Shown here: piece by piece, positions 58,282 to 58,923 of the stretch
Position numbering within the stretch: position 1 is the stretch's first letter
How the letters are laid out: each line of letters begins with the position of its first letter
Source of the DNA: Escherichia coli
GTDB lineage: Bacteria; Pseudomonadota; Gammaproteobacteria; Enterobacterales; Enterobacteriaceae
Assembly (NCBI RefSeq): GCF_003334405.1
Contig: NZ_QOWM01000004.1
Strand: one strand, 5' to 3'
DNA: 64,000 nt
Translations under genes and position numbers: made by a program
The notes under the pieces: model-generated
The model's input: the letters and a program-made list of their open reading frames with translations, nothing else
Told to the model about the DNA's origin: nothing
The model's database searches: none

Positions 58282-58432
58282 GGAAGTGATAGGAAGTGAC
58301 CAGATAATACATATATGTTCTGTACTCTCTTGCGCATTTTGATTGTTGACTGAGTAACCAGACAGTTGATGTGCACGATTTCCCCTCGCCCTAACAGACG
58401 TGGGCGGGGGCACCCGGTGTGTGCAATATACG

Positions 58433-58460
58433 AAAAAAAAGCCCGTACTTTCGTACGAGC
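58433..58460 (-). terminator. Intrinsic terminator copy in repeat unit 1 (minus-strand GCUCGUAC-GAAA-GUACGGGC followed by U8)
   Basis: Hairpin 58441-58460 and A8 on plus strand 58433-58440, read from sequence. Confidence 0.6.
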
Positions 58461-58613
58461 TCTTCTTTAAATATGGCGGTGAGGGGGGGATTGACTCGCT
58501 TCGCTCGCCCTGCGGGCAGCCCGCTCACTGCGTTCACGGTCTGTCCAACTGGCTGTCGCCAGTTGTCGAACCCCGGTCGGGGCTTCTCATCCCCCCGGTG
58601 TGTGCAATATACG

Positions 58614-58641
58614 AAAAAAAAGCCCGTACTTTCGTACGAGC
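58614..58641 (-). terminator. Intrinsic terminator copy in repeat unit 2
   Basis: Identical hairpin plus U8, 181 bp from the unit-1 copy. Confidence 0.6.
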
Positions 58642-58794
58642 TCTTCTTTAAATATGGCGGTGAGGGGGGGATTGACTCGCTTCGCTCGCCCTGCGGGCAG
58701 CCCGCTCACTGCGTTCACGGTCTGTCCAACTGGCTGTCGCCAGTTGTCGAACCCCGGTCGGGGCTTCTCATCCCCCCGGTGTGTGCAATATACG

Positions 58795-58822
58795 AAAAAA
58801 AAGCCCGTACTTTCGTACGAGC
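58795..58822 (-). terminator. Intrinsic terminator of serX (hairpin plus U8, 13 nt after the tRNA CCA end)
   Basis: Hairpin 58803-58822 and A8 on plus strand 58795-58802; GNRA (GAAA) loop. Confidence 0.75.
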
Positions 58823-58835
58823 TCTTCTTTAAATA

Positions 58836-58923
58836 TGGCGGTGAGGGGGGGATTCGAACCCCCGATACGTTGCCGTATACACACTTTCCAGGCGTGCTCC
58901 TTCAGCCACTCGGACACCTCACC
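58836..58923 (-). tRNA. serX: tRNA-Ser (GGA anticodon), 88 nt with encoded CCA
   Basis: Minus-strand sequence GGTGAGGTGTCCGAGTGGCTGAAGGAGCACGCCTGGAAAGTGTGTATACGGCAACGTATCGGGGGTTCGAATCCCCCCCTCACCGCCA; long variable arm typical of tRNA-Ser. Confidence 0.95.

What the first reader, a model, noticed from the sequence alone, without database searches (positions are those of the whole stretch)
58413..58854. 2.4 tandem copies of a 181-bp unit 3' of serX, each with a tRNA 3'-end copy and an intrinsic terminator
Seen directly: units begin at about 58413, 58594 and 58775, and the third runs into the real tRNA. Every unit contains tggcggtgagggggggatt, identical to the last 19 nt of serX including CCA, followed on the minus strand by a GAAA-loop hairpin and U8. 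Downstream of the tRNA the transcript would therefore meet three identical terminators, and the pseudo-3'-end segments could be cut out as small stable RNAs. Established knowledge as I recall it: the E. coli tyrT locus has a comparable 3' array of about 178-bp repeats carrying tRNA 3'-end homology (rtT RNA), and tRNA 3' ends are classic integration sites whose cores are duplicated on island insertion. Inference: the array may record repeated integration/excision or amplification at the boundary of the adjacent low-GC block, and may encode processed small RNAs. The ORFs the track calls through the array are probably repeat artefacts.
Basis: partly seen in the sequence, partly recalled or inferred. 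Interest (0 to 1): 0.6.

Follow-up and report, generated by a model that had tools for sequence, protein, structure and literature searches.

The report
RtT-type repeat array behind serX tRNA
The repeats behind the E. coli serine-tRNA gene serX are real, but they belong to the known RtT family of tRNA-trailer repeats first described at tyrT and are already labelled 'RtT sRNA' in public E. coli annotations, so the finding is correct but largely ordinary.

Summary
There are 2.4 perfect copies of a 181-bp unit at 58413-58854. The last 19 nt of tRNA-Ser(GGA) occur three times. A GAAA-loop hairpin followed by U8 also occurs three times.

Both full units match Rfam RtT (RF00391) at 46.3 bits against a threshold of 45. 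NCBI's PGAP pipeline already annotates them as 'RtT sRNA' in many E. coli genomes. The curated K-12 MG1655 record has no feature there.

Copy number runs from 0.4 to about 6.4 at serX. K-12 assemblies alone show 2.4, 3.4 and 4.4. The paralogous serW locus carries 0 or 1 unit.

Homologous units follow tRNA-Ser(GGA) in many enterobacterial genera, with 19 compensatory base pairs. Across tRNA types, the 5' arm and an internal hairpin track the neighbouring tRNA's T-stem.

Unlike the tyrT units, nearly every Ser-type unit has its own intrinsic terminator.

Most likely these are terminator-plus-structured-RNA modules. They would be expressed by terminator read-through and trimmed to a tRNA-like CCA end. 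Copy number changes by unequal recombination between the 80-bp repeats.

An origin as integration scars is not supported. The ORFs through the array are artefacts. What the RNA does remains unknown.

The parts
58413..58854 (-). Whole tandem array: 2.4 copies of the 181-bp unit. The proximal 0.44 unit is the tRNA's 3' end plus its terminator and spacer.
   Evidence: TRF: period 181, 100% matches.
58836..58923 (-). serX, tRNA-Ser(GGA). Its last 19 nt (58836-58854) form the proximal copy of the repeated 3' end.
   Evidence: ARAGORN; Rfam tRNA 53.8 bits.
58958..58986 (-). Sigma-70-like promoter candidate for serX (TTGACC, 17 nt, TAAATT), about 35 nt upstream of the tRNA's 5' end.
   Evidence: Consensus scan, 9 of 12 matches. 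Pattern match only.
58795..58824 (-). Terminator T1, directly 3' of serX: stem GCUCGUAC/GUACGGGC, GAAA loop, U8. An upstream A-rich run can pair with the U tract, which looks bidirectional.
   Evidence: The hairpin is conserved with 7 compensatory pairs across genera (helix 1).
58655..58791 (-). RtT-like unit 1, a structured RNA body ending in a pseudo 3' end.
   Evidence: Rfam RF00391 46.3 bits, threshold 45. MFE -59.4 kcal/mol, z -3.1.
58770..58777 (-). Unit 1, 5' arm S1 (GGGGGGAU) of closing helix P1. It pairs with 58665-58672.
   Evidence: MFE fold. Rfam structure line. S1 tracks the cognate tRNA's 3' strand.
58750..58765 (-). Unit 1, hairpin P2 inside the conserved motif AUGAGAAGCCCCGACCGGGGUUCGA. 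The stem copies the tRNA's T-stem sequence.
   Evidence: T-stem tracking in 85 of 89 distinct units.
58727..58746 (-). Unit 1, hairpin A (CAACUGGCG ACA GCCAGUUG).
   Evidence: 4 compensatory pairs (helix 4).
58655..58673 (-). Pseudo 3' end 1: AAUCCCCCCCUCACCGCCA, identical to the tRNA's last 19 nt.
58614..58643 (-). Terminator T2, identical to T1.
58474..58610 (-). RtT-like unit 2, identical to unit 1.
   Evidence: Rfam 46.3 bits. Alignment A4.
58474..58492 (-). Pseudo 3' end 2.
58433..58462 (-). Terminator T3, identical to T1 and T2.
58413..58432 (-). Distal spacer remnant CGUAUAUUGCACACACCGGG. The array stops here, where a further unit would continue with GGGAUGAGAA.
   Evidence: Repeat identity extends 0 nt below 58413.

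Best explanation
This is an array of RtT-family tRNA-trailer modules linked to tRNA-Ser(GGA).

Each 181-bp unit has four parts in the tRNA's sense:
1. An intrinsic terminator.
2. A short A/U-rich spacer.
3. A structured RNA body of about 118 nt.
4. An exact copy of the tRNA's last 19 nt including CCA.

In the body, the 5' arm pairs with the T-stem and acceptor part of the pseudo 3' end. An internal hairpin repeats the tRNA's T-stem sequence.

Shown:
- Family membership by sequence and structure.
- Conservation of the terminator and of several body hairpins (A, B and one pair of the 3' helix) through compensatory changes across enterobacterial genera. Within the Ser(GGA) class, closing helix P1 and hairpin P2 are near-invariant, so their support is tracking of the cognate tRNA across tRNA types.
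- Matching of the unit to its neighbouring tRNA.
- Copy-number polymorphism.

Inferred:
- serX transcription mostly stops at T1.
- The fraction that reads through yields unit 1, which ends at T2, and so on with diminishing yield.
- Each unit is then trimmed at its 3' side to the CCA end by the enzymes that mature tRNA 3' ends, releasing an RtT-like RNA.
- At the DNA level, the 80 bp shared by every unit and by the tRNA's end (19-mer, terminator, spacer) is a substrate for unequal homologous recombination or replication slippage. That would add or remove whole units.

The cellular role of the RNA is unknown. The only reported effect for the family is on the stringent response (Bosl and Kersten 1991, as cited in PMC3318445 and PMC4986893).
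For: Family membership:
- Rfam RtT hits both units at 46.3 bits against a threshold of 45.
- PGAP annotates 'RtT sRNA' at this locus, 0 to 5 copies per genome.
- The alignment with tyrT units shares GGAUGAGAAGCnnCGACCnnGGUUCGAC and the 3' half.

Structure:
- In 30 Ser(GGA) units from many genera, 48 consensus pairs are 96.8% paired, against 92.1 +/- 0.3 in shuffles (0 of 500 reach the observed value) and 38-54% with slid partners.
- 19 pairs show compensatory change, against 8.7 +/- 1.5 in shuffles.

Matching to the tRNA:
- The segment before UUCGA equals the tRNA's T-stem 5' strand in 85 of 89 distinct units.
- The 5' arm is complementary to the T-stem 3' strand plus the first acceptor bases, with lineage-specific compensation in L027, L105 and L108.
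- Own-unit duplex energy is -14.9 kcal/mol, against -11.0 across tRNA types.

Terminator:
- It folds at -20.4 kcal/mol, z -5.4.
- It is present in 49 of 52 distinct Ser(GGA) spacers.

A 3' end at a pseudo-CCA in vivo: Term-seq reports a 3' end 4 nt past the pseudo-CCA of the tyrT-tyrV spacer unit (PMC7815308 supplement).

Copy number:
- UMNF18 has 1.4, the window 2.4, MG1655 3.4, a second K-12 assembly 4.4, SL124 5.6 and ZF34 about 6.4. Some strains have 0.4.
- At serW, filled and empty alleles differ by exactly one unit lying between direct repeats.
Against: - No transcript data exist for this array. Term-seq tables hold no serX entries, probably because reads map to several identical copies.
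- A strong terminator sits in front of every unit, so expression may be very low.
- No convincing unit-internal promoter was found.
- The Rfam score is only just above threshold. A unit with two substitutions drops to 36.1 bits.
- The shuffle control does not account for relatedness of the sequences.
- The recombination mechanism is inferred from allele structures, not observed.
Confidence: 0.72

Rival explanations
1. Integration scars. Each pseudo 3' end would be an att-site duplicate left by repeated integration and excision of genomic islands at serX, and the array would record those events.
For: - serX and serW are attB sites for P4-type integrase islands.
- Their 14-bp direct repeat TGGCGGTGAGGGGG lies inside the 19-mer (PMC3064760).
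- In strain 08_3323 an island with a tyrosine integrase abuts such a core next to two units.
- The flank beyond the array varies between strains (PMC5635171).
Against: - The DNA between the copies is a terminator plus an RtT body homologous to units at tyrT and at Ser(GGA) genes of many genera, kept by compensatory changes.
- The repeated segment is 80 bp, not 14.
- There is no match in the phage collection.
- Arrays occur in genomes without an island at serX.
- Site-specific recombination does not produce head-to-tail 181-bp units.
Confidence: 0.04
2. A stack of fail-safe, possibly bidirectional terminators. It would insulate the strongly transcribed tRNA gene from the convergent neighbour (ycdU here, clpA at serW, narGHJI at tyrT). 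The RtT bodies would be passengers.
For: - Three identical strong hairpins each have an A-tract on one side and a U-tract on the other.
- The plus-strand scan also flags them.
- All three E. coli loci have a convergent neighbour.
- The terminator is conserved in 49 of 52 Ser(GGA) spacers.
Against: - Hairpins A and B of the body carry compensatory changes of their own (helices 4-6).
- The enterobacterial tyrT-type units lack terminators altogether.
- One terminator would suffice, and strains with 0.4 copies exist.
- This reading can coexist with the main explanation.
Confidence: 0.12
3. Neutral tandem duplication. The units would be non-functional copies of the tRNA's end and trailer that expand and contract by slippage, and no RNA product would matter.
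For: - Copy number is very variable, including zero full units in about 2060 of 5426 genomes.
- Units within one array are identical, as expected from recent amplification.
- serX itself is dispensable (PMC8611074).
Against: - The unit is conserved across genera, with 19 compensatory pairs.
- It matches whichever tRNA it follows.
- A neutral repeat would not keep helices over that divergence.
Confidence: 0.08
4. Protein-coding repeats: either the ORFs called through the array, or a tpr-like 'protamine-like' peptide starting at the conserved AUG of AUGAGAA.
For: - ORFs of 83-137 codons run through the array on the plus strand.
- PGAP calls a hypothetical protein in some genomes.
- tpr is annotated inside rttR in MG1655.
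Against: - The period of 181 is not a multiple of 3, so each unit is read in a different frame.
- The AUG/GUG-initiated frame is 5 to 42 codons long across units and often stops at codon 6.
- Indels fall in the hairpins.
Confidence: 0.01

Closest known systems
RtT RNA (rttR) and the 178-bp repeats of the E. coli tyrT-tyrV operon (Rfam RF00391)
   Same: - Both are tandem units of about 180 bp in the 3' trailer of a tRNA gene, on the tRNA's strand.
- Each unit ends in an exact copy of that tRNA's last 19 nt including CCA.
- They share the core GGAUGAGAAGCnnCGACCnnGGUUCGAC, a CCCGnAGGG hairpin and the closing helix P1.
- The units pass the family's Rfam threshold.
   Different: - The pseudo end, the 5' arm and the P2 stem carry tRNA-Ser rather than tRNA-Tyr sequence.
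- Every Ser-type unit is preceded by an intrinsic terminator, which the enterobacterial tyrT units lack.
- The Rfam score is 46 bits, against 133-137 for tyrT.
- The tpr reading frame is not kept.
- No expression data exist for this array.
Direct repeats (attL/attR cores) flanking tRNA-integrated genomic islands such as OI-43, OI-48 and the SRL PAI at serW and serX
   Same: Both are duplicated copies of the tRNA's 3' end. The 14-bp island core lies within the 19-mer.
   Different: - No element lies between the copies.
- The repeat is 80 bp of a 181-bp unit.
- The intervening DNA is a conserved RNA module.
3' external transcribed spacers of tRNA operons that act as RNAs, such as 3'ETS-leuZ (Lalaouna 2015, cited in PMC7815308)
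   Same: Both are trailer-derived RNAs released during tRNA processing.
   Different: - 3'ETS-leuZ is a short single-copy sponge with no tRNA-matched end.
- No sRNA partners are known or were tested for the serX units.
- This is a resemblance in origin only.

Membership tests
RtT RNA (Rfam RF00391) | Covariance-model score at or above the curated gathering threshold (45 bits) | tested here: met
   Both full units score 46.3 bits. This is borderline. The variant distal unit of MG1655 scores 36.1.
RtT RNA (Rfam RF00391) | Lies in the 3' trailer of a tRNA gene on the same strand | tested here: met
   The units lie on the minus strand, directly 3' of tRNA-Ser(GGA). The motif lies 61-71 nt after a same-strand tRNA in most related loci.
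RtT RNA (Rfam RF00391) | Each unit ends with a copy of the adjacent tRNA's 3'-terminal ~19 nt including CCA | tested here: met
   There are three exact 19-mers, against 0.01 expected. Most related units show 0-1 mismatch to their own tRNA.
RtT RNA (Rfam RF00391) | Head-to-tail units of about 178 bp | tested here: met
   The period is 181 here and 178 at tyrT.
RtT RNA (Rfam RF00391) | Closing helix between the 5' arm and the pseudo 3' end, plus internal hairpins, kept by covariation | tested here: met
   The support differs by helix. Within the 30 Ser(GGA) units, helices 2 (P1) and 3 (P2) have no pair changed on both sides. Their support is co-variation with the cognate tRNA across tRNA types. 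The 19 compensatory pairs lie in the terminator (7), hairpin A (4), hairpin B (5+2) and the 3' helix (1).
RtT RNA (Rfam RF00391) | RNA released from the tRNA primary transcript by processing (Bosl and Kersten 1991) | not testable with these tools
   The only indirect support is a Term-seq 3' end near the pseudo-CCA of a tyrT unit. No data exist for serX.
RtT RNA (Rfam RF00391) | Archetype feature: the unit is co-transcribed with no intrinsic terminator between the tRNA and the unit | tested here: not met
   A hairpin plus U8 precedes every serX unit. It is present in 49 of 52 Ser(GGA) spacers. Among 54 Tyr spacers only 4 have one, and all 4 are non-enterobacterial. This is a trait of the tyrT example rather than of the Rfam model, so it marks a variant and is not an exclusion.
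Island att-site direct repeats | Repeats flank an integrated element that carries an integrase or other mobile genes | tested here: not met
   Only 162 nt lie between the copies, and they hold no real gene. That stretch is an RtT body plus a terminator.
Island att-site direct repeats | The repeat equals the integrase core at the tRNA's 3' end | tested here: met
   The 14-bp core TGGCGGTGAGGGGG (PMC3064760) lies inside each 19-mer.
Island att-site direct repeats | The intervening or adjacent sequence is found in phage or element attP regions | tested here: not met
   There is no blastn match in 50,697 phage records. Plasmid-collection hits are mostly large non-mobilizable records that look like chromosome pieces.
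Intrinsic (Rho-independent) terminator | G+C-rich hairpin followed directly by a U tract | tested here: met
   An 8-bp stem, a GAAA loop and U8, at -20.4 kcal/mol, in three copies.
Intrinsic (Rho-independent) terminator | Terminates transcription in vivo or in vitro | not testable with these tools
   No 3'-end data are available for this multi-copy sequence.

The most novel reading that the evidence does not exclude
RtT modules may be a widespread class of tRNA-specific trailer RNAs, not a tyrT oddity.

Wherever one follows a tRNA, its 5' arm, an internal hairpin and its 3' end are re-matched to that tRNA's T-stem and acceptor 3' strand. Here this was seen for Tyr, Ser-GGA, Ser-GCT and Arg-ACG. 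It was seen tentatively for Phe and Ser-CGA, and tentatively outside Proteobacteria.

The 10-nt free tail CUCACCGCCA is the acceptor 3' strand of tRNA-Ser. The RNA could therefore act as a cognate-specific mimic or partner. It might be a decoy for 3'-end processing or repair enzymes, or for uncharged-tRNA sensing. It might instead pair with the tRNA's 5' strand.

The Ser-type arrangement, with a terminator before each unit, would make its dose depend on terminator read-through and on copy number.
Probability: 0.18. Interest if true: 0.6.

Novelty: already known. Interest (0 to 1): 0.3.

Why it matters
As a finding it mainly corrects the record.
- The repeats behind serX are RtT-family units, not island scars or genes.
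- The curated K-12 annotation leaves them blank.
- PGAP labels them with a note, 'processed from tyrT transcript', that is wrong for this locus. It also misses units carrying one or two substitutions.

Three points may be useful beyond that.
- The RtT family has had no settled function since 1991. The Ser-linked units offer natural alleles with 0 to 6 copies for testing one.
- The units co-vary with whichever tRNA they follow, which argues for an RNA-level role tied to that tRNA.
- Each pseudo 3' end repeats the 14-bp attB core used by serX/serW islands. The array also changes length between laboratory K-12 lines. Both points matter for typing, for assembly and for reading island junctions.

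Tried and rejected
- Phage origin: a blastn search of the unit against the phage collection found nothing.
- Plasmid origin: there were 40 records, 36 of them non-mobilizable and several of megabase size. They are probably mis-filed chromosome, not evidence of mobility.
- Coding potential: the plus-strand ORFs shift frame with each unit. The tpr-like frame is not conserved.
- Unit-internal promoter: the consensus scan found none. An ATATT box lies 19-23 nt before the motif in about a third of Tyr and Ser(GGA) units, against 3% background. It is absent from other classes, so I draw no conclusion.
- Experimental 3' ends: the Term-seq supplement of PMC7815308 has no entry for serX or for coordinates 10971xx-10975xx.
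- Literature: no paper in the held library mentions serX together with rtT or RtT. Bosl and Kersten 1991 is not held.
- Distant members: Rfam does not detect the Pseudoalteromonas, Aliiglaciecola, Neiella, Fibrobacter, Chlorobiales or Gastranaerophilales candidates. My own model R1 gives them 20-38 bits, but it gives similar scores to motif hits with no tRNA nearby. Those loci were also pre-selected by the motif, so membership outside Enterobacterales, Marinobacterium and Sedimenticola stays tentative.
- Register problem: the MAFFT alignment of mixed tRNA types (A2) puts helix P1 one column out of register between the Ser and Tyr units. I therefore tested P1 by direct duplex energies instead.
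- False lead: an apparent loss of homology at exactly 58413 in many genomes turned out to be partly an effect of how repeated BLAST pieces are joined.

Full report
**1. The observation**

- Tandem Repeats Finder reports a single array at 58413-58854: period 181, 2.4 copies, 100% identity.
- ARAGORN places tRNA-Ser(GGA) at 58836-58923 on the minus strand.
- The reverse complement of the tRNA's last 19 nt, including CCA, occurs exactly three times: 58474-58492, 58655-58673 and 58836-58854. About 0.01 matches are expected. Identity to the tRNA stops at 19 nt.
- A 30-nt hairpin plus U8 occurs three times, with none expected. It folds at -20.4 kcal/mol with a GAAA loop, z -5.4.

The surroundings show an E. 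coli K-12-like chromosome:
- IS3 at 55727-56898
- ycdU at 57295-58281
- serX, then ghrA and ycdX

**2. What it is**

Rfam's RtT model (RF00391) matches both full units, 58655-58791 and 58474-58610 on the minus strand. Each scores 46.3 bits against a gathering threshold of 45.

At the tyrT locus of MG1655 the same model finds four units at 133-137 bits. One lies in the tyrT-tyrV spacer and three behind tyrV, within a 178-bp x 3.1 array.

A direct alignment shows homology beyond the tRNA-derived end. The shared parts are GGAUGAGAAGCnnCGACCnnGGUUCGAC and a 3' half with CCCGnAGGGCGAG.

RefSeq genomes annotated by PGAP already carry 'RtT sRNA' features between tRNA-Ser and ycdU, from none to five per genome. 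The curated MG1655 record has nothing between ycdU and serX.

I found no paper in the held library that mentions serX together with rtT.

**3. Variation within E. coli**

The 101-nt body that is unique to full units occurs in 3366 of 5426 complete genomes. Positive genomes have 1 to 11 places, median 2.

Copy number at serX:

| Genome | Copies |
|---|---|
| H10, H11 | 0.4 |
| UMNF18 | 1.4 |
| this window, ATCC 8739 and others | 2.4 |
| MG1655 | 3.4 |
| K-12 assembly NZ_CP010439.1 | 4.4 |
| SL124 | 5.6 |
| ZF34 | about 6.4 |

MG1655's distal unit differs at two positions and scores only 36.1 bits, so pipelines miss it.

The identical paralogue serW (infA-serW-clpA) has the same tRNA and a homologous terminator. 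MG1655 has no unit there, while other strains have one. The two alleles differ by exactly one unit lying between direct repeats.

The distal edge of the serX array differs between lineages:
- After CCGGG in K-12.
- Inside the body in MS8324, where dgcT follows directly.
- At a third position in 08_3323, where a DUF2726 gene and phoH follow.

This agrees with the reported variability of the phoH-serX interval (PMC5635171).

**4. Related loci in other organisms**

In most gammaproteobacterial loci the motif lies 61-71 nt after a same-strand tRNA gene. The tRNA types were:
- Tyr(GTA) and Ser(GGA) in many Enterobacterales.
- Ser(GGA) and Tyr in Marinobacterium.
- Ser(GCT) in Pseudoalteromonas.
- Arg(ACG) in Aliiglaciecola.
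- Phe(GAA) in Neiella.

Ser(GGA)-linked units occur in E. albertii, Citrobacter, Enterobacter, Kosakonia, Pluralibacter, Phytobacter, Atlantibacter, Pantoea and Salmonella enterica arizonae. The association is therefore old and not specific to E. coli.

Candidates also turned up in Fibrobacter, Chlorobiales and Gastranaerophilales MAGs. Rfam does not detect them, and my own model separates them only weakly from motif hits that lack a tRNA. I treat them as tentative.

**5. Units match their tRNA**

Four segments follow the neighbouring tRNA.
- The 8-9 nt before RUGAGAA are complementary to the T-stem 3' strand plus the first acceptor bases.
- CNNCG repeats the T-stem 3' strand.
- The bases before UUCGA equal the T-stem 5' strand in 85 of 89 distinct units.
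- The 3' end repeats the tRNA's last 19 nt, with 0-1 mismatch in most units.

Lineages whose tRNA differs show matching changes in the 5' arm (L027, L090, L105, L108, L077). Own-unit duplex energy averages -14.9 kcal/mol, against -11.0 across tRNA types.

**6. Structure**

The E. coli serX and tyrT units fold into the same plan: a closing helix P1, hairpin P2, hairpin A and a 3' domain.

I aligned 30 Ser(GGA) units that include their upstream spacer. The results were:
- The consensus has 48 pairs, and 19 of them show compensatory change.
- 96.8% of cells are paired, against 92.1 +/- 0.3 in shuffles (0 of 500 reach the observed value) and 38-54% with slid partners.
- The compensatory pairs are distributed as terminator 7, hairpin A 4, hairpin B 5+2 and the 3' helix 1.

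The shuffle control ignores relatedness, but the slid controls and the count of pairs point the same way.

**7. Difference from the archetype**

A terminator-like hairpin with a T run lies between the preceding CCA and the unit in most classes:

| Class | Distinct spacers with terminator |
|---|---|
| Ser(GGA) | 49 of 52 |
| Ser(GCT) | 7 of 8 |
| Ser(CGA) | 2 of 2 |
| Phe | 1 of 1 |
| Tyr | 4 of 54, all non-enterobacterial |

The serX arrangement, with a terminator before every unit, is thus the usual one outside tyrT.

**8. Mechanism**

Shown: family membership, conserved structure, matching to the tRNA, conserved terminators and copy-number polymorphism.

Inferred:
- serX transcripts mostly end at T1.
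- Read-through yields unit 1 up to T2, and so on.
- The pseudo-CCA end is produced the way tRNA 3' ends are.

Indirect support comes from Term-seq, which places a 3' end 4 nt past the pseudo-CCA of the tyrT-tyrV spacer unit (PMC7815308 supplement). The same data set lists a Rho-dependent site just 3' of serW, but nothing for serX.

Gain and loss of units by unequal recombination between the 80-bp repeats is inferred from the allele structures.

The function of the RNA is not known. Papers cite only an effect on the stringent response.

**9. Rival explanations**

- Integration scars. The 14-bp island core lies within the 19-mer, and an island abuts such a core in one strain. However, the intervening DNA is a conserved RNA module, and the unit is absent from phages.
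- Terminator stack. This is plausible as an additional role.
- Neutral repeat. This is contradicted by the compensatory changes.
- Coding. This is excluded by the frame shift per unit and the non-conserved tpr-like frame.

**10. Verdict**

The integration reading is not supported.

The feature is already annotated in public genomes, so novelty is low. Three things are not documented in what I could search: the Ser-specific form with per-unit terminators, its wide occurrence, and the systematic matching of units to their tRNA.

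Noticed in passing
L126 742-1080 (MG1655 serW-clpA spacer); L003 4150-4380; L004 4160-4250: Spaced copies of TTTCTAAGCTGCCTGTACGGCAGTGAAC with a period of about 60 nt lie directly after the serW terminator or RtT unit. 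MG1655 and L004 have 2 copies and L003 has 4. From memory, this is the reverse complement of the type I-F CRISPR repeat, which would make it the orphan CRISPR array between clpA and infA.
   Followed up: no
L002 2523-2659; E. coli genome hits H81-H91: RtT units with one or two substitutions fall below the Rfam threshold (36.1 against 45 bits), and PGAP leaves them unannotated. The PGAP note 'processed from tyrT transcript' is also applied at serX and serW, where it is wrong.
   Followed up: partly
L130 5380-5600: In strain 08_3323 a genomic island with a tyrosine integrase gene ends about 150 nt from the 14-nt core CCCCCTCACCGCCA. That core is followed by the terminator and two RtT units. Each pseudo 3' end in an array repeats this attB core.
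   Followed up: partly
window 58374-58412: Just beyond the distal end of the array lies an imperfect inverted repeat, CCCCCGCCCACGTCTGTTAGGGCGAGGGG (minus-strand sense). Its role is unknown.
   Followed up: no
window 58422-58426, 58603-58607, 58784-58788 (minus strand AUAUU): An ATATT box lies 19-23 nt before RTGAGAA in about a third of Tyr and Ser(GGA) units, against 3% background. It could be a weak -10 element or an RNase E-type site. It is absent from other classes.
   Followed up: partly
window 47310-47503 (-), 12756-13178 (+), 23861-23939 (-), 29826-29868 (-): Other Rfam matches above threshold in the window are Ysr251 (189 bits), the cspA thermoregulator (159 bits), naRNA4 (69 bits) and ES036 (38.5 bits).
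   Followed up: no
window 55727-57298: An IS3 copy (insE/insF ORFs) is followed by the ymdE remnant and by ycdU, which has lower G+C (0.38-0.43). Other strains lack this block and have dgcT or a DUF2726 gene next to the serX array.
   Followed up: partly
L091 (Aliiglaciecola sp.), about 4000-4300 on the minus strand: An RtT-like unit starts only 5 nt after tRNA-Arg(ACG) and ends in that tRNA's last 18 nt. There is no terminator, and another tRNA-Arg follows 207 nt after the motif. The arrangement resembles the tyrT-RtT-tyrV layout.
   Followed up: no
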